The notes beneath the pieces were generated by a model. The model had not been told where the DNA came from. It did not search any database and saw only the letters and a list, made by a program, of their open reading frames with translations. The position numbers were made by a program, and so were the translations under genes. Shown one piece after another: positions 11,119 through 64,000 of a stretch of 64,000 nucleotides of DNA (within the stretch, counting starts at the first letter, position 1; the number at the start of each line of letters is the position of its first letter). The DNA is from a virus. The DNA lies in IMG/VR virus record IMGVR_UViG_3300050192_000013, positions 3,705 to 67,704 of that record. One strand, 5' to 3'.

Positions 11119-11676
11119 TCCATGCAACCCGCGTTTAAGAACTGCCCAGACGGACTCGATTCCATTCGTGTGCGCCGCACCGCGTTTGTACTCGCCCGCC
11201 GAATGGTTCACGGCGTCATGCCGGAAGAAAAGGCCGTCCAGGTCGGAGTAAGCCATGTGCTCATCGGTGTACAGTTGCGAACCGACTTCCACATTGGCGT
11301 GGATCTCACCTTGAATGGTCTGGATGGTCCGATCCTCGATAACCTTCGCTACGGTGCGCCCGCCGCGTTCTCGCAAGCCCATGACGGCGACCTTGCCGAC
11401 TGGCCCGCGTCCCATGCGGAGCTTCTTGGATTCGTGCTTGTTCGCTTCCTTGCCACCCACAAAGCACTCGTCGATTTCGACCGTGCCGCGAAGCTTGTCA
11501 ATCTCATCGTCGGAGCCGCAAGCTTCACGGAGCCGGGACAGCATGAACCATGCCGACTTCTGGGTTACACCAATCTCCTTGGCAAGTTGAAGGCTGCTGA
11601 TTCCCTTACGAGCGGTCACCAGCAGATACATGGCGTAAACCCACTTGTGAAGCGGGATATGCGACCGCTCGAAGAC
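11119..11676 (-). pseudogene. IS1595 (ISXO2-like) DDE transposase core fragment
   Basis: VFERSHIPLHKW..KGISSLQLAKEIGVTQKSAWFM..VEIDE..TDE..VNHS..HTNGIESVWAVLKRG. The Zn ribbon and C-terminus are missing. Confidence 0.9.
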
Positions 11677-11746
11677 GCTTTCGACTTCGGTTTCGGACGG
11701 TAGTTCAGCACCAAGTCCGCTATCTGATCCAGTTCGACCGGGGCCT

Positions 11747-58192: not shown

Positions 58193-60142
58193 ATGCGACA
58201 ACTGCTAGTCATATTATCCCTGTGCGCCGGAGTGGCCTTCGCGCAGCCGACACCACCAACGCAGACAACCGTTAGCGATACCGTGTTCTTTAGCTACGGG
58301 TCTCCAGCGAAAGGTGCGAATTGCGTCATGTCCATAACTGGACCGGACAACGGGCCGACAAGCATCAGCACAACTACGGTATTTCCCTCCACAGTGACGG
58401 TGGTGATACGTGCCGGTGTTGCGCTGTTTGCGATTACGCCAAATTATAATAGTTCGACATACAGCGCGGCGGTCACCTGCCAACCTCCGTTTCAATCTCA
58501 GTTCACGATGTATCTCTCGATTCCGGTGTCTGGCTCTCCGGTGACATTCTCGCAGATTATTGTCCCCAATCCTTTCGTTCCGGTCACGACAATCAACGTC
58601 TCGCAAATCATAGCGAGTGGATTCTCCAATGGACAGGTAATCTGCTGGTCTTCTACGGCTAACTCATTTGGCCCGTGCGTTCCTACAGCAAATACGCTAT
58701 TCAGCGGCATCCTACCTGGAACAAATACCGGCGCGCTGGTGGTTGGAACGAATGGCTCGTTTACCTTCTCTGGCGCTGGGATAATCAACGCGAATGAGGT
58801 GAACGGCGTACTGCTTAGTGGGTTAGCGACTGGCCTCTTGCTCAACACTTCCGGCGTGCTTACTGCGGCGGTCGATTGTACGAATTACGTCTCGCCTACA
58901 TGCCTCGCCAGCGGCGCGCTCCCGATATCAGTCACCACCATCGCGGGAAGCAGCAACGTCACAGTGAATGGCTCTATCGCGGCTGGCACGATTGGCACAC
59001 CCGGTTCGTTACACCTATCGGACGCGAGCGGGTTAGACGGTGGATTTATACAGCCATCCGTTGGCGCTGGCGTGCTATGGACGCTACCGACAGTGGAAGT
59101 GGCGAACTCCGCGTTGGAGACTAATCCATCCACGCATCAACTGTCATTCATTCCCGTCTTGAATCTCGGCTCCGTTGGACCGCAAACGATCTATAACCCA
59201 ACCGGATCGTTTTACACCACGACCATATGGCAGGAATCGTCATCTCAGGCCGGTGCGACTTGCGGGCTTTCGCCAGTTGGGTGCCAAGCCGAGATCCTAT
59301 TGCAGGACAATGCCGGTTCACCCGTCATGTACGCTGGCGCGAGTTCCGGTATGGCGCTCGGGAATGGTACCGTCTGGGATTGGTTCTACAGCAGCCCGAA
59401 TATCGCGCTATCGTCTGCCGTACAACTGCGCTGGAATAGCGCCGACACCGTACTTGGTTCTGGCGCTGGTTCTGCCGATGTGGCGCTAGGTCGCGAATCT
59501 GCTGGCGTCCTGGAAGTGCAGAATGGCGGCGCGGGGAGAGGGACACTGGATATAGGCGCGTTGCAGATTGGTGGGGCCGCGATTGCCTATGGTAATATCG
59601 CTGGGTTCCCTTCGGTGTCTGAGTTGGTCCTTAACGGCTCAAGCAGCGGAACTTGTCCAATCACGGTTTCCGCAACTGGCGGAAATGCGACCATCTGCGG
59701 GAACTTCACGGTAGCGGCCAATGGAGCGGTCGGGTTGGGCGCTGGAAGTACAGGTCCAATCTCGAATTATTCGGGTGAAGGCGTGGGACAGATTGGCACA
59801 GCCAATGCGACAACGTACTATTTGTGGCCGGGCGGCACATCGCCGACGTTAGCATCATCCACGGGGCATCCTGGAATTCCAGTTCCAGCAACCTGCACGG
59901 CGCGCAATCTCTACGTGGAGGCGTCCGCTGGTCCGACTAGCGCTGGTGGAACCGTTACCCTCTACCACAACGCCACCGCGGCTGCGTTGACCTGCACGCT
60001 GCCTTCTGGTTCCAGTGTGAACTGTTCGGACACAACGCACACCGTCGCGTTTACTGCCGGAGCGTTGTGGTCTATCGGCGTACTGACCACCCAAGCCACG
60101 GACACCACAACTAACGTAACAGCGAGCTTTCAATGTCAGTAA
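58193..60142 (+). CDS. Fibre/adhesin-like protein with N-terminal signal peptide
   Basis: MRQLLVILSLCAGVAFA/QP; C-terminal LTCTL....CSDTTHTV motif. Confidence 0.65.
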   Translation: MRQLLVILSLCAGVAFAQPTPPTQTTVSDTVFFSYGSPAKGANCVMSITGPDNGPTSISTTTVFPSTVTVVIRAGVALFAITPNYNSSTYSAAVTCQPPFQSQFTMYLSIPVSGSPVTFSQIIVPNPFVPVTTINVSQIIASGFSNGQVICWSSTANSFGPCVPTANTLFSGILPGTNTGALVVGTNGSFTFSGAGIINANEVNGVLLSGLATGLLLNTSGVLTAAVDCTNYVSPTCLASGALPISVTTIAGSSNVTVNGSIAAGTIGTPGSLHLSDASGLDGGFIQPSVGAGVLWTLPTVEVANSALETNPSTHQLSFIPVLNLGSVGPQTIYNPTGSFYTTTIWQESSSQAGATCGLSPVGCQAEILLQDNAGSPVMYAGASSGMALGNGTVWDWFYSSPNIALSSAVQLRWNSADTVLGSGAGSADVALGRESAGVLEVQNGGAGRGTLDIGALQIGGAAIAYGNIAGFPSVSELVLNGSSSGTCPITVSATGGNATICGNFTVAANGAVGLGAGSTGPISNYSGEGVGQIGTANATTYYLWPGGTSPTLASSTGHPGIPVPATCTARNLYVEASAGPTSAGGTVTLYHNATAAALTCTLPSGSSVNCSDTTHTVAFTAGALWSIGVLTTQATDTTTNVTASFQCQ

Positions 60143-61986
60143 AATCTATCATTTTCGCCTTATTGTCACTCCCGTTGTTCGGACAGATTGTCGTGACGCC
60201 GCTTGCGCTGCCGACCGAGCCAATCAATAACTATTATAGTTTCTCGGAAAAGCCCGGAACGGTGAATACGTTCGCTGCGACTGGCGGAACTGGCCCATAC
60301 ACGTTTGCGGTGACAAGCGGGTCTTTGCCTACAGGGTTGACGCTGGTATCCAGCGGGAGCATGACTGGAACGCCTACAATAGTCGGCACATCAACTTTCA
60401 CCGTCACGGCGACCGACTCACTTAGCGCCACAGGGGCGCAGGCGTATACACTCCAGACTATCGCTACGGAAAATGGCTGCACTCTCTGGGGATGGGCTTG
60501 CGATGGGGTAGATACTGGCGTATCCGCTACAATCCTACCTTCTCTTGGCGACACGCTGCACGATGTAGGCGCGGCGCTGAAGGTTATCGACGCAACGAGT
60601 GCTGTAGTGGTGCAGCCGCGTATTCCGCTGTCGGGACAAATTATCCCGGCTAACTCTTCGTTCATCGGCGCAAATCCCGGCATCACTGCGGCGGCGGTAG
60701 TTCCGTTCATGGACATGATGGCCACGCCCCCGCCGAATGGTCCAGGCATGACCACGCAGTCGCTATTCCCATGGCCCGCCGCGTTTGCTTGCGACTCTTC
60801 GTATGCACCACTTTGGGGCGGTACGTACCCTTGCGACTGCCCTGGCGGAGTTACGTTATCTTACGACTCAAATCCTCCCCCAGGAACCAATTACACGGCA
60901 AACCCGCACTGCTACTCGCTCTATTACGTTTACGACAACGCGGTGTCCCACGCAGTCGCCAAAGGCTATACGCTGCGCTTTGCGCTTCCGCCGAATGGCG
61001 TGACCGTTAATCAATACGTCCCGGCCCCTCCGACTTCACTCTGCAATCTTACCACCGGGAGCGTAACGATAGCCGCATATACGGCGTGCATGTTGCCTCT
61101 TTTAGAAGCGATGACATATAGGTACGGTCCAGTCGTCCCTACTTACTGGATTCAGGTTTACCTTGAGCCATACGGCTTCATGCAACTCATCAACCCGTCG
61201 AATCCGTTCTCTGTCACCGATGCGGCGCAATACATCGTGGCGGCAAGCACGGCAGTTCATGCGATTCGACCGGGACCGACGACTAAGGTATTTGCGACGG
61301 CACTTGGGACTTCGCGCGTGACGACGTTTCCCGGCAGCACGGATATCTGTTACTGGTACGATTGGTCTGGCGGTGCGGCAGCGGGGAAGACGCCGCCACC
61401 GGATTGCAGCGCGGCGGTAACGAACACGTATCAATTTGTCGATGGCCTCGCTATTGATTGGTTCTCTGGGCAGTGCGAACAGGCGACGCCGGGGACTCCT
61501 GGCGGTACGGGATACAACTATTCCGATCAGGCAATTTGGTTCCGTGGCAATTTCTTAAGCGCAAACTCGAATCCATACGGCAAGCCGGTGATTGTCGGCC
61601 AAACGACGCCGCCTTGGTGGTGTCCGCCTACTGGAAGATCCGACGATCCGCACTCAATCCAAGGACCGTTATGGAGTTTCTGGACCTCATCTGGGCTAAA
61701 CGCCGCATGGCAGACAACTATGGCGCGCGCATGGTCACGCATGGGAATCACCGAGGCCGCGTACTTCTGCGATCTGCCGCTGTTCTTCCAGGAGTCGATG
61801 CCGAATATCATAATCAACAACTGCAACACAGCGGTGTCGATCCAGAACGCCATCGCGAGCGGACTATCGCTGAATCAGAACGCGGTCAACTGGGGATATC
61901 TAAATACCCACGGCGCAAACGCGGCGCTTCAGGGAAAGGCCAGCATTTCAGGGTGCGGCGGCATCGGCGCGACCTGTAACCATTAG
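60133..61986 (+). CDS. Signal-peptide protein with putative Ig (He_PIG) domain and GH clan-A-like barrel
   Basis: MSVKSIIFALLSLPLFG/QI; ATGGTGPYTFAVTSGSLPTGLTL..SG.MTGTPT..GT.TFTVTATDS; LEP / IDWF / KPVIVGQ motifs. Confidence 0.65.
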   Translation: MSVKSIIFALLSLPLFGQIVVTPLALPTEPINNYYSFSEKPGTVNTFAATGGTGPYTFAVTSGSLPTGLTLVSSGSMTGTPTIVGTSTFTVTATDSLSATGAQAYTLQTIATENGCTLWGWACDGVDTGVSATILPSLGDTLHDVGAALKVIDATSAVVVQPRIPLSGQIIPANSSFIGANPGITAAAVVPFMDMMATPPPNGPGMTTQSLFPWPAAFACDSSYAPLWGGTYPCDCPGGVTLSYDSNPPPGTNYTANPHCYSLYYVYDNAVSHAVAKGYTLRFALPPNGVTVNQYVPAPPTSLCNLTTGSVTIAAYTACMLPLLEAMTYRYGPVVPTYWIQVYLEPYGFMQLINPSNPFSVTDAAQYIVAASTAVHAIRPGPTTKVFATALGTSRVTTFPGSTDICYWYDWSGGAAAGKTPPPDCSAAVTNTYQFVDGLAIDWFSGQCEQATPGTPGGTGYNYSDQAIWFRGNFLSANSNPYGKPVIVGQTTPPWWCPPTGRSDDPHSIQGPLWSFWTSSGLNAAWQTTMARAWSRMGITEAAYFCDLPLFFQESMPNIIINNCNTAVSIQNAIASGLSLNQNAVNWGYLNTHGANAALQGKASISGCGGIGATCNH

Positions 61987-61990
61987 GGGC

Positions 61991-62019
61991 TTGACAGAAT
62001 TGGCGGAAGGTTATAAACT
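61991..62019 (+). promoter_or_regulatory. sigma70 promoter
   Basis: TTGACA-17-TAAACT. Confidence 0.65.
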
Positions 62020-62031
62020 AATTATAAAATC

Positions 62032-62178
62032 ATGGAAGAGACCATCAAAACAGTCCAACTGAAACCGGACGTTCACAAAAAGCTAAAGGCGCACATCAAG
62101 CGCGAGGGTGGTCATATCTCCAGCATGGTTGACCGGCTAGTGCGCGAAGGGTTGGCGATGCGGAAGGTGAAGACTTGA
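62032..62178 (+). CDS. Ribbon-helix-helix DNA-binding protein
   Basis: MEETIKTVQLKPDVHKKLKAHIKREGGHISSMVDRLVREGL; read manually. Confidence 0.65.
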   Translation: MEETIKTVQLKPDVHKKLKAHIKREGGHISSMVDRLVREGLAMRKVKT

Positions 62179-62591
62179 AAATAGACTCGCACGGGCGCAA
62201 CGTAACGTTCACGATAGCACTAACGCTGAGCATGATGTTCTTGGTTCCGATGGTCTTGGTTCTACTCGCAGATACACCCAACGATCCCAAGCCAACCATG
62301 CGTCTCGCCGCTCCAATTCAAGGCGACACTGCGCGCAAATTGGCAATCCTGCGATTCCATATGGTGGACGCCAAGGATCGCAAGGCCGCGATGGTGCAGC
62401 AAGCGGAGCAGCAAGGCGACGAAGAAATCAAGGCTACGGCTAACGAGTACCTAAAGGGTATTCGTGAAGCGCAGGCAGCCGAAGGCGTTGCAGGAGACTG
62501 CAAGCCAAGTAGTGATTTGACCTGGATCAAAAATGACGGGACGCCGTGCATGGTGGCCGTCAAGGAAAAACAAAAAGGAGCAGCGAAATAG
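62175..62591 (+). CDS. Membrane-anchored/secreted coiled-coil protein
   Basis: N-terminal hydrophobic helix then coiled coil. Confidence 0.55.
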   Translation: MKIDSHGRNVTFTIALTLSMMFLVPMVLVLLADTPNDPKPTMRLAAPIQGDTARKLAILRFHMVDAKDRKAAMVQQAEQQGDEEIKATANEYLKGIREAQAAEGVAGDCKPSSDLTWIKNDGTPCMVAVKEKQKGAAK

Positions 62592-62593
62592 TT

Positions 62594-63079
62594 ATGCCGA
62601 ATCCGTTTCAGTTTTATCCCAAGTTGGCGACCGTGCTGGCCGACAATCCGCTGTGGGCTGTCGATGCCTTGGTGTATCAGGCAGGCCCAGCCGATTTCCC
62701 CGACGGTAAGTACATTCAGGTCGTGGACGTGTCGAGCGATGCCGTGACTGCCGAGTACGCCAATGAGTTGCTGGCGATCTTCAAGGCGCTCGGGTATAAG
62801 GGCGCAAATTCCCTGACCACGAAGCAGGGCGAAACAATCGAGTACGCTATTATTCCAAATCCACAGAAGCCTACGGACGACAGGGATTTGTACGCCTTCG
62901 TGGAGCCGGGACCTGGATTCGCTTATGATGGGCTGCTCTCTGAGTACTTCGCCGGCCAGAGCGAATACAACGATGTTAACGGCGGCGGTGTCGGTTCGCC
63001 GGGTGCGTGGACGCTACCCAAGGGGTCTCCGGAGCCGGTGTGGGTTCCGTCAGTTTACACGCCGCCCGTTGCGGCGTAA
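62594..63079 (+). CDS. Hypothetical protein
   Basis: RBS AAGGAG. Confidence 0.6.
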   Translation: MPNPFQFYPKLATVLADNPLWAVDALVYQAGPADFPDGKYIQVVDVSSDAVTAEYANELLAIFKALGYKGANSLTTKQGETIEYAIIPNPQKPTDDRDLYAFVEPGPGFAYDGLLSEYFAGQSEYNDVNGGGVGSPGAWTLPKGSPEPVWVPSVYTPPVAA

Positions 63080-63241
63080 CAAGTTTGGGCCGGTGCGGGT
63101 AATGCCGCCCTCCTTCGACGGGAGAGACCAAACCGACCCAATTCAAGGTTCTGGGTGAGAGCGGATACCGAGGTAGCGCTACGGGCTCCGACTCAATACG
63201 GTGAAGAACCCGGACATCACCCAGATTCAATTTTGCCCGGA

Positions 63242-63274
63242 TTCGCCGCCCGTGAAGGTGGCGTGGATTGAAAC
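63242..63274 (+). CRISPR. Solitary CRISPR-repeat-like unit (type I-C-like); not an array
   Basis: TT-CGCCGCC-CGTGAA-GGTGGCG-TGGATTGAAAC: 7-bp stem plus the canonical 11-nt I-C 3' handle. Single copy, no cas genes in the window. Confidence 0.7.
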
Positions 63275-63287
63275 AAGGAGAAACTCA

Positions 63288-63860
63288 ATGACGACGACAT
63301 TCCCGATTTTCACGCTGGATTACACGCGCCTCACGAAGCAGATGGCGGCAGTGCTGATGGTGCTGATTATGGCCTGCATGGTGGCCTGTTCGACCGCCCA
63401 GGTTGTGACGGATCTGGAGTTGGCGACAACCATTATCGACGACGCAGGCACCATCGCGGCAGGGCTTGGATTCATCCCCGCTCCGATAGCCACAATCCTC
63501 ACCGATGCGGCGCTCTGCATTCAGTCCGGGCTCGTCCCGGCACTACAAGCGGGCGGCAAGATCGGAACGGTGATCGGGACCGCACTGCACGCCTGTTACG
63601 TGGCAGTCCAAACCACCATCCCAACAGGCACGGATGCGACGTTGGCCGCGAAGGTGGATGCGGAGGTTGTGCAAATCACCAAACTGCTCGGTGAATACGG
63701 TATTACGATTCCTCCCGCTACTCCGGCACCCACAGCGAGCGCGATGGTAGCGCGGGCGCAGGCGATGACCGTCATTATGCCGAAGTTGAGGGCCGTGGAT
63801 AGGGAGAAGTTGGCTGCGCTGGCCGCGCACGTGTTTAAGCCGCTGCCGCCGGTGCGATAG
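63288..63860 (+). CDS. Putative lipoprotein
   Basis: Basic-hydrophobic N-region ending MVAC/S; RBS AAGGAG immediately follows the repeat. Confidence 0.6.
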   Translation: MTTTFPIFTLDYTRLTKQMAAVLMVLIMACMVACSTAQVVTDLELATTIIDDAGTIAAGLGFIPAPIATILTDAALCIQSGLVPALQAGGKIGTVIGTALHACYVAVQTTIPTGTDATLAAKVDAEVVQITKLLGEYGITIPPATPAPTASAMVARAQAMTVIMPKLRAVDREKLAALAAHVFKPLPPVR

Positions 63861-63911
63861 GTTCTTTGTGCTGGCGTCTGCGTGGATAGACACGCTAAAA
63901 CAGGAGCAGTC

Positions 63912-64000
63912 ATGAACGAACACGAATACTTTGGGTTGGTGGACGTTAACGGCAAGCTGATGGACCACGGGTTGCGCGGGGTGCCGGACCTTTTCCCCAC
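63912..64000 (+). CDS. Hypothetical protein, truncated by window end
   Basis: RBS AGGAG; MNEHEYFGLVDVNGKLMDHGLRG.. Confidence 0.4.
   Translation, partial: MNEHEYFGLVDVNGKLMDHGLRGVPDLFP

What the first reader, a model, noticed from the sequence alone, without database searches (positions are those of the whole stretch)
63242..63310. Solitary type I-C-like CRISPR repeat fused to a ribosome-binding site: candidate RNA anti-CRISPR or Cas5d-processed switch
The 33-mer has the I-C architecture (2 nt, 7-bp stem, loop, TGGATTGAAAC). It is intergenic, single-copy, and there are no cas genes in the window. Phage solitary repeat units can act as RNA anti-CRISPRs (Racr; established). Here the would-be spacer is AAGGAGAAACTCAATG.., the SD and start of the lipoprotein gene. 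Host Cas5d cleavage at the stem base would therefore both yield a crRNA mimic and reshape that mRNA, possibly coupling gene expression to the presence of host CRISPR (inference).
Basis: partly seen in the sequence, partly recalled or inferred. Interest (0 to 1): 0.75.

Follow-up and report, generated by a model that had tools for sequence, protein, structure and literature searches.

The report
Lone CRISPR repeat decoy in phage
A peat-soil phage carries one copy of a type I-C CRISPR repeat inside an operon, placed directly against the ribosome-binding site of a small lipoprotein-like gene; it is most likely an RNA decoy against the host's CRISPR proteins, a trick already described for other phages.

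Summary
At 63242-63274 (+) there is a single 33-nt unit with the full type I-C repeat anatomy: a 2-nt overhang, a 7-bp stem, a loop and the 11-nt tail TGGATTGAAAC. It is 27-29/33 identical to the repeats of real I-C arrays (Cas5d and Cas1c next to them) in Bryobacterales/Acidobacteriota genomes. Every difference lies in the 5' overhang, the loop or one G:C-to-G:U stem change. These include the two parts (overhang, loop) where Cas5c tolerated changes. The window is part of a 68.5-kb IMG/VR phage record with no I-C cas genes and no second repeat. The SD AAGGAG starts one base after the repeat, and the ATG at 63288 opens a 190-aa ORFan lipoprotein-like gene.

The unit plus SD is unchanged in nine related metagenome contigs, although both flanks carry a 75-nt deletion, substitutions and different upstream genes. 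RNA-library contigs from three peat studies span it.

Best reading: a new member of the known solitary-repeat-unit / RNA anti-CRISPR (Racr) class, of which RacrIC1 is a validated type I-C example.

The proposed Cas5d-dependent expression switch is possible but untested. Repeat-to-SD abutment recurs in other lone I-C repeats ahead of unrelated genes, and tight gene packing may explain it. The scan has noted similar lone I-C repeats on other DNA.

The parts
61991..62019 (+). Promoter-like site (TTGACA, 17 nt, TAAACT), the only sigma-70-like site on the + strand upstream of the unit; probable start of the accessory operon
   Evidence: 10 of 12 consensus matches; inference that it drives the operon
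62032..62178 (+). 48-aa ribbon-helix-helix-like ORF, first gene of the operon
   Evidence: weak Pfam Omega_Repress match, E=0.003, below cut-off
62175..62591 (+). 138-aa ORFan with an N-terminal hydrophobic segment
   Evidence: no family
62594..63079 (+). 161-aa ORFan directly upstream of the intergenic region; replaced by an unrelated 153/174-aa gene in other contigs
63061..63077 (+). Hairpin CGCCGC-CCGTT-GCGGCG at the mosaic breakpoint; its first 10 nt equal the first 10 nt of the repeat's stem-loop
   Evidence: a third upstream context joins at 63071 (table 7)
63162..63236 (+). 75-nt dispensable segment, deleted in variants L150/L151 between CGGAT direct repeats; contains the GTG 63201 that gene callers use as start
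63242..63274 (+). Solitary type I-C repeat unit (SRU): stem arms 63244-63250 and 63257-63263, predicted Cas5c cut after 63263, 11-nt handle 63264-63274
   Evidence: cut site and handle by analogy with PMC8524198
63275..63280 (+). Shine-Dalgarno AAGGAG, starting one base after the repeat and 7 nt before the ATG
   Evidence: identical in all nine related contigs
63288..63860 (+). 190-aa ORFan gene with a signal-peptide/lipobox-like N-terminus (LIMAC at residues 26-30)
   Evidence: Of 17 substitutions against L146, 11 fall on third codon positions. No family or solved relative. Nearest language-model look-alikes are viral and Acidobacteriota hypotheticals

Best explanation
The 33-nt unit is a solitary repeat unit derived from, and still mimicking, the type I-C CRISPR repeat of the phage's probable Acidobacteriota (Bryobacterales-like) hosts.

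Proposed mechanism (all steps inferred): it is transcribed in the sense direction as part of a phage accessory operon. The host Cas5c (Cas5d) recognises the stem base and the U-G-G plus handle, and probably cuts after 63263. The resulting RNAs tie up Cas5c, and the Cas7/Cas8c that assemble on the handle, in complexes that carry no useful guide. This lowers the pool available for real crRNAs, which is how an RNA anti-CRISPR (Racr) such as RacrIC1 works.

Shown here: the anatomy, the kinship with real I-C repeats, solitariness, orientation, conservation, and presence in RNA libraries. Inferred: the identity of the host, binding and cleavage by Cas5c, and inhibition of interference.
For: (1) The unit is 27-29/33 identical to repeats of arrays of 15-58 copies in Bryobacterales, Solibacteraceae and other Acidobacteriota MAGs. 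Cas1c scores 520 bits against a cut-off of 385, with Cas4, Cas2 and Cas3 alongside, and Cas5d lies 3-8 kb away.
(2) All differences fall at nt 1, at loop positions 12/14/15, and at one G:C-to-G:U change (nt 18). The cut-site base, the U-G-G and the whole 11-nt 3' overhang are identical. Published mutagenesis found that Cas5c reads the stem base, the U22-G23-G24 and the 3' overhang, but not the loop or the 5' overhang (PMC8524198).
(3) It is a single copy, intergenic, on the same strand as all neighbouring genes, on a viral record without I-C cas genes.
(4) The 51-nt block of unit plus SD has 0 changes in nine contigs. In L150/L151 a 75-nt deletion ends 5 nt upstream of the unit, a hairpin upstream is replaced, and 10 of the first 51 coding bases differ.
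(5) The module occurs behind at least three different upstream genes.
(6) RNA-library contigs from three peat studies span the unit.
(7) Precedent: 2,103 viral SRUs are described, and RacrIC1 is a validated I-C Racr co-transcribed with a protein gene (PMC10651486).
Against: The host is not identified. None of 187 spacers from the related arrays hits the phage, and no array repeat lies within 3 mismatches in 301 Bryobacterales genomes.

No promoter-like site lies within 250 bp upstream; the nearest is 1.25 kb away. The Racr paper used a nearby promoter as a selection criterion.

No recognisable acr gene is nearby, because all neighbours are ORFans.

The stem is weaker than the host's (-12.6 against -18.1 kcal/mol), and in 130-340-nt contexts it has only 1-15% predicted pairing probability.

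The related contigs are close relatives (up to 4% divergence in the gene), so conservation has limited power.

An actively translated mRNA directly downstream of the handle is not the obvious design for a protein sponge.
Confidence: 0.55

Rival explanations
1. Cas5c-dependent expression switch. Cutting after 63263 would leave an mRNA whose whole 5' leader is the 11-nt handle followed at once by the SD. Cas5c stays on the handle and Cas7 would bind the next 6-nt steps, which are the SD and the ATG. The lipoprotein would then be silenced, or its 5'-OH mRNA stabilised, only in cells with active I-C proteins.
For: The SD starts one base after the handle. Cas5c is reported to remain at the 5' handle (PMC8524198). 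Among nine other phage SRUs followed by an SD-led gene within 80 nt, two (L063, L066) also have the SD at offset 0. About five further independent lone I-C repeats abutting AAGGAG plus a start codon exist in metagenomes.
Against: There are no data on processing or translation. The downstream genes in the other cases are unrelated: membrane proteins, a Tat-signal enzyme, small basic proteins. Several SRUs simply fill a stop-to-SD gap, as expected in tightly packed phage operons. The metagenome scan selected for AAGGAG, so it cannot give an unbiased rate, and at least one hit (L159, upstream of rpsE) looks like chance.
Confidence: 0.15
2. Neutral leftover: a piece of a host array, or of a decayed viral mini-array, picked up by recombination and carried along with the lipoprotein module without any function.
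For: The module is mosaic and mobile among phage variants. The upstream hairpin at 63061-63077 shares 10 nt with the unit and could be a decayed partner. The stem is weakened. Lone perfect repeats also sit in Bryobacterales chromosomes (L005, L012).
Against: Every change avoids the positions Cas5c reads. The unit is untouched while both immediate flanks vary, and a deletion stops 5 nt short of it. It is in the sense orientation. Phage genomes tend to lose useless DNA (general knowledge).
Confidence: 0.17
3. Guide-bearing regulatory mimic (Cracr / viral crlRNA). The handle plus the following bases would act as a short guide that directs host Cascade to repress cas genes or a CRISPR-guarding toxin.
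For: Viral crlRNAs against I-C systems are reported (bioRxiv 10.1101/2024.10.29.618823). The first 24 nt after the unit are invariant in all contigs.
Against: No TTC PAM plus seed match was found in the roughly 90 kb of Acidobacteriota cas-locus and array flanks that I hold. There is no second, even degenerate, repeat downstream. The invariant bases are already explained by the SD, the start codon and coding constraint, and beyond them the changes are mainly at third codon positions.
Confidence: 0.06
4. Chance look-alike or ordinary intercistronic hairpin unrelated to CRISPR.
For: Rfam gives only a sub-threshold match: CRISPR-DR9, 21.6 bits against a gathering score of 45, E=0.031.
Against: A 33-mer with 28-29 matches to abundant array repeats, including 15 consecutive 3' bases and 10 consecutive 5' bases, is far beyond chance. 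No shuffle gave a match.
Confidence: 0.02

Closest known systems
RacrIC1 and viral solitary repeat units (RNA anti-CRISPRs; Camara-Wilpert et al. 2023, PMC10651486)
   Same: A single type I-C repeat look-alike on a viral genome, intergenic, with no partner repeat, in the sense orientation inside a protein-coding operon and probably co-transcribed with it.
   Different: RacrIC1 sits 11 nt downstream of a known acrIC5 homologue. Here the neighbours are ORFans, the unit lies 162 nt after the previous gene, and it touches the SD of the next one. No nearby promoter is predicted. The host lineage (Acidobacteriota of peat) is inferred, not known. No functional test exists.
Type I-C CRISPR array repeats of Bryobacterales, Solibacteraceae and other Acidobacteriota MAGs (loci L003, L010, L011, L015, L016)
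   Same: The same 33-nt length, the same first 10 nt of the stem region, the same last 15 nt including the handle; 27-29/33 identical overall.
   Different: Single copy, a different first base and loop, one G:U in a stem that is one pair shorter (-12.6 against -18.1 kcal/mol), no spacers and no cas genes.
Viral crlRNAs / Cracr and host CreA/CreR mini-arrays (bioRxiv 10.1101/2024.10.29.618823)
   Same: A repeat-like unit on a phage that could load host Cas proteins.
   Different: Those RNAs are defined by a spacer-like part with at least 9 PAM-proximal matches to a cas or toxin promoter. No such target and no second repeat were found here.
Engineered Cas6/Csy4 cleavage sites placed before an RBS to insulate gene expression
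   Same: A CRISPR repeat hairpin directly upstream of an RBS, so that cleavage defines the 5' end of the mRNA.
   Different: That is a synthetic device. Csy4 stays on the upstream hairpin, whereas Cas5c stays on the downstream handle next to the SD.

Membership tests
Type I-C CRISPR repeat (sequence and fold) | 2-nt 5' overhang, 7-bp stem, short loop, 11-nt 3' overhang (PMC8524198) | tested here: met
   fold ..(((((((......)))))))...........; the loop is 6 nt rather than 5, with one G:U pair.
Type I-C CRISPR repeat (sequence and fold) | U-G-G directly after the cut site and a conserved handle ending ATTGAAAC | tested here: met
   positions 23-33 are TGGATTGAAAC, identical to all the array repeats compared.
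Type I-C CRISPR repeat (sequence and fold) | Close identity to repeats of arrays that adjoin I-C cas genes | tested here: met
   27-29/33; Cas1c above cut-off; Cas5d above cut-off in 3 of 4 genomes, 3-8 kb from the arrays.
Type I-C CRISPR repeat (sequence and fold) | Match to a curated Rfam CRISPR-DR model at gathering score | tested here: not met
   best is CRISPR-DR9, 21.6 bits against 45; nothing in the window reaches a gathering score. I did not check whether Rfam holds a model for this repeat type.
Solitary repeat unit / Racr candidate (criteria of PMC10651486) | On a virus or plasmid, intergenic, matches a known repeat, no other (partial) repeat nearby | tested here: met
   IMG/VR record, single copy, real gene start at 63288; the downstream TGGATT motif is not conserved.
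Solitary repeat unit / Racr candidate (criteria of PMC10651486) | Host carries CRISPR-Cas of the same subtype | tested here: inconclusive
   The host is unknown. The nearest repeats are in Acidobacteriota with I-C loci, but there is no spacer match. Weak leads only: peat habitat, Acidobacteriota look-alikes of the lipoprotein, and an IS1595 core 68-79% identical to Bryobacterales copies.
Solitary repeat unit / Racr candidate (criteria of PMC10651486) | Promoter within 250 bp upstream (used there to choose candidates) | tested here: not met
   no sigma-70-like site between 63080 and 63242; the nearest is at 61991-62019. Co-transcription with the operon, as for RacrIC1, remains possible.
Solitary repeat unit / Racr candidate (criteria of PMC10651486) | acr gene within about 1 kb | tested here: inconclusive
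   the neighbours match no family or solved structure. No dedicated Acr library was available.
Solitary repeat unit / Racr candidate (criteria of PMC10651486) | Bound or processed by the Cas endoribonuclease, and inhibits interference | not testable with these tools
   RNA-library contigs span the unit, but contigs cannot show RNA ends.
Cracr / viral crlRNA | Spacer-like part with at least 9 PAM-proximal matches to a cas or toxin promoter | tested here: not met
   no TTC plus seed match in the held cas-locus flanks. The search was limited to genomes that may not be the host.
Viral mini-CRISPR array | At least two repeats flanking a spacer | tested here: not met
   one copy in 68.5 kb and in each related contig.

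The most novel reading that the evidence does not exclude
Lone type I-C repeats placed flush against a Shine-Dalgarno sequence form a recurrent phage device. Host Cas5c would cut the operon RNA and stay on the 11-nt handle, and Cas7 would then coat the SD and start codon. The downstream gene would be expressed only in hosts, or at times, without active I-C proteins, so the phage would sense host CRISPR at the level of translation. This window, L063 and L066 among viral contigs, and about five independent metagenome lineages all show the flush arrangement.
Probability: 0.12. Interest if true: 0.7.

Novelty: new member of a known kind. Interest (0 to 1): 0.38.

Why it matters
If it acts as a Racr, it extends RNA anti-CRISPRs to phages of Acidobacteria. 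This is a dominant but poorly cultured soil and peat phylum for which I know of no described anti-CRISPR (own knowledge, not searched). It also gives a host lead (I-C-bearing Bryobacterales-like bacteria) for a roughly 100-kb phage that 14 listed peat and permafrost DNA runs hold. The flush repeat-SD arrangement is a cheap, testable hypothesis about whether phage mRNAs can be made responsive to host Cas proteins. On present evidence it is a variation in placement, not a new mechanism.

Tried and rejected
- Exact unit in viral contigs and in metagenome contigs: no hit.
- Relatives of the two flanking proteins in viral contigs: none.
- Homologues of the lipoprotein among 5.8 billion proteins: only its own 90% cluster, so no deep comparison or covariation test of the stem was possible.
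- Spacers of the related arrays against the phage: only chance-level matches of 12-15 nt.
- Unit within 3 mismatches in 301 Bryobacterales genomes: none.
- First 20 kb of the window against 101 Bryobacterales genomes: only an IS1595 transposase core at 68-79% identity, which does not assign a host.
- Search of the roughly 100-kb ENA contigs behind L146/L147: these records are not held.
- Supplements of the Racr paper searched for this unit: not found in the files held.
- Degenerate second repeat at 63316 (TGGATTACAC): rejected, because it is not conserved.
- The 219-aa reading from GTG 63201, which would make the unit coding: rejected.
- Promoter inside the 209-nt gap: none found by scan or by eye.
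- Fold of 63200-63330: no better than shuffles, z = 0.21.
- Pfam, PHROGs, PDB sequence and Atlas searches of all neighbouring ORFs: no function. One gene about 2 kb downstream in related contigs is an endolysin (Peptidase_M15_4 / phrog_1768).
- Depth of the RNA contigs over the unit is higher than over its neighbours. It is one figure per contig and sums across variants, so I draw nothing from it. Parts of the stretch without RNA contigs likewise mean nothing.
- Contexts of the lone repeats in L005 and L012: ordinary chromosomal genes, uninformative.

Full report
**What is there**

The window is bases 3705-67704 of a 68,528-bp linear IMG/VR virus record, estimated 59% complete. Almost all long ORFs are on the + strand. 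Two large tail-fibre-position genes (58193-60142 and 60133-61986) are followed by a promoter-like site at 61991-62019. After that comes a run of small genes:
- a 48-aa ribbon-helix-helix-like ORF;
- a 138-aa ORFan with a hydrophobic N-terminus;
- a 161-aa ORFan ending at 63079;
- a 208-nt gap;
- a 190-aa ORFan starting at ATG 63288.

The 33-mer sits at 63242-63274, at the very end of the gap. AAGGAG follows at 63275-63280 and the ATG 7 nt later.

**Is the unit real?**

It is unique in the window and in the record, and no shuffle gave a match within three mismatches. Folded alone it gives a 2-nt overhang, a 7-bp stem with one G:U, a 6-nt loop and an 11-nt tail.

A scan of one genome per prokaryotic species for the same stem and tail found 18 stretches. 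These include arrays of 58, 23, 18 and 24 copies in Bryobacterales and Solibacteraceae MAGs.
- Beside the largest array lie Cas3, Cas4, Cas1c (TIGR03640, 520 bits against a cut-off of 385) and Cas2.
- Cas5d (TIGR01876) lies 3-8 kb from the arrays in all four genomes checked, above the cut-off in three.

So these are true type I-C arrays. The phage unit is 29/33 identical to the repeat of an Acidobacteriota MAG and 28/33 to the commonest Bryobacterales repeats. The mismatches fall only at nt 1, at loop positions 12/14/15, and at nt 18, where a G:C pair becomes G:U.

Published work on Cas5c describes the I-C repeat as 2 nt + 7-bp stem + loop + 11 nt. [quoted passage not shown] Recognition depends on the stem base, the U-G-G after the cut and the 3' overhang, and not on the loop or the 5' overhang (PMC8524198). 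Four of the five differences therefore lie where that work found tolerance (5' overhang and loop), and the fifth keeps a stem pair as G:U. Rfam gives only a sub-threshold match to CRISPR-DR9.

**Coding or not?**

Public gene calls often start the downstream gene at GTG 63201 (219 aa), which would make the unit coding. In contigs L150/L151 a 75-nt deletion (63162-63236, between CGGAT direct repeats) removes that GTG while the gene persists, and callers there give 190 aa. Substitutions between variants fall mostly on third codon positions of the 190-aa frame. The unit is therefore intergenic and the SD/ATG assignment is sound.

**Relatives**

The lipoprotein-like protein has no homologue beyond its own 90% cluster of 16 near-identical sequences. 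I fetched nine contigs that carry it. Two have the window's architecture, on contigs of about 100 kb. Six place the same module behind a DNA polymerase A gene and an unrelated 153/174-aa gene. L140, a 3-kb piece, matches the window.

Identity to the window in the second group begins at about 63060, at a hairpin (63061-63077) whose first 10 nt equal those of the unit's stem-loop. RNA-library contigs reveal a third upstream context joining at 63071.

Across all nine contigs the 51 nt from 63237 to 63287 are unchanged. In L150/L151, by contrast, the segment just upstream is deleted, a further hairpin is replaced, and 10 of the first 51 coding bases differ. This is modest evidence of constraint, because overall divergence is only about 4% and part of the block (SD, spacing) is constrained anyway. 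The motif TGGATTACAC at 63316 is not conserved, so there is no decayed second repeat.

**Expression**

Fourteen listed peat and permafrost DNA runs and six metatranscriptome runs hold a large share of the 2-kb stretch. In three RNA studies, contigs span the unit with no or few differences (X15 63063-63306; X17 63060-63331). The sequence is thus present in RNA libraries in uncut form. Contigs cannot show RNA ends, and DNA carry-over cannot be excluded, so this is weak support for transcription and says nothing about processing.

**Mechanism**

The closest known thing is the viral solitary repeat unit acting as an RNA anti-CRISPR. The Racr study lists 2,103 viral SRUs. It validated RacrIC1, a type I-C unit that lies 11 nt downstream of an acrIC5 homologue and is co-transcribed with it (PMC10651486). 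I consider that reading the most likely here (about 0.55).

Points against it:
- the host is unidentified;
- no promoter is predicted nearby;
- no acr gene is recognisable nearby;
- the stem is weaker and, by thermodynamic prediction, is out-competed in longer contexts.

**The RBS coupling**

Cas5c, unlike Cas6f, stays with the 5' handle. The Cas-bound product would therefore be the downstream mRNA, whose first bases after the handle are the SD. I infer that occlusion of translation is more plausible than activation.

I looked for recurrence in two samples.
- Viral contigs: of 95 single matches to the 14-nt repeat end in IMG/VR, 29 have a proper stem. Nine of these have an SD-led ORF within 80 nt, four of them within 25 nt. 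In two (L063, L066) the SD starts at offset 0, as here, and several units exactly fill a stop-to-SD gap.
- Metagenome contigs: a scan for the repeat end fused to AAGGAG was cut off at 120 stretches. Of these matches, 95 lie in arrays, 26 are solitary and 12 have a stem. About five look like independent good cases, ahead of unrelated genes, and at least one looks like chance.

The arrangement therefore recurs. But the samples are small, the second one was selected for the motif, and tight packing of phage genes predicts much of it. I give a selected switch about 0.12-0.15.

**Other rivals**

- Guide-bearing crlRNA (Cracr): no PAM-plus-seed target in the cas-locus flanks I hold and no second repeat.
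- Neutral leftover: possible, but it fits poorly with where the changes fall and with the untouched island between variable flanks.
- Phage-borne CRISPR system: no cas5d, cas7c or cas8c in the record. The Cas5d model did find its targets in the bacterial genomes.

**Verdict**

The element is a new member of the known SRU/Racr kind, from an under-studied host phylum. The switch idea remains an open, testable hypothesis. Earlier notes of this scan on other genomes reached a similar view of lone I-C repeats upstream of start codons. I treated them as leads only.

Noticed in passing
window 63061-63077 (also L139, L141, L148-L151): A hairpin (CGCCGC-CCGTT-GCGGCG) marks the exact point where contigs with different upstream genes become identical to the window. 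Its first 10 nt equal the first 10 nt of the repeat unit's stem-loop. RNA contigs show a third upstream context that joins inside it, at 63071. It could be a decayed partner repeat, a 3' end hairpin, or a recombination hotspot.
   Followed up: partly
L005:4026-4058 (-) and L012:2995-3027 (+): Single consensus-type I-C repeats (L012 identical to the L011-type array repeat; L005 a loop variant) stand alone in long Bryobacterales MAG contigs, with no array in the 8-kb loci. They lie among ordinary chromosomal genes (malic enzyme, lactonase, DUF72). In L012 the repeat follows a stop codon by a few bases and is followed by a T-run.
   Followed up: partly
L066:2202, L087 (-) 2181, L138 (-) 3147, L063 (-) 5932: In several IMG/VR contigs a lone I-C repeat exactly fills the gap between the stop codon of one gene and the SD of the next, in the sense orientation.
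   Followed up: partly
L003:48-4077 with L145 (same contig, about 3 kb upstream): In this Bryobacterales I-C locus cas3 lies directly upstream of cas4-cas1-cas2, and cas5d lies about 3 kb upstream of cas3. This suggests the order cas5-cas8-cas7-cas3-cas4-cas1-cas2 rather than the usual cas3-first order. Here Cas5d scores below its cut-off (56 bits).
   Followed up: no
window 61991-62178: A near-consensus promoter-like site is followed by a 48-aa ribbon-helix-helix-like gene at the head of the small-gene cluster after the tail-fibre genes. This layout is reminiscent of a self-regulated accessory (anti-defence or moron) operon.
   Followed up: no
window 11347-11679: The IS1595-type transposase core in the phage is 68-79% identical at DNA level to copies in 6 of 101 Bryobacterales genomes searched. 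This is a weak host lead only.
   Followed up: partly
L159:5782-5799 (-): A repeat-end look-alike with a 6-bp stem sits directly upstream of a ribosomal protein S5 gene in a metagenome contig. It is probably chance, and it shows that scans for repeat end plus SD pick up false positives.
   Followed up: no
L146:12118-12483 and homologous genes in L148, L150, L151: A Peptidase_M15_4 / phrog_1768 endolysin gene lies about 2 kb downstream of the lipoprotein gene in related contigs, with several 41-62-aa ORFs around it. The lipoprotein-like gene may therefore border the lysis region.
   Followed up: no
window 62000-64000: Fourteen listed peat and permafrost DNA runs and six metatranscriptome runs, all from different coded studies, hold 43-97% of this stretch's sampled words. 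The phage seems widespread in northern peat.
   Followed up: partly
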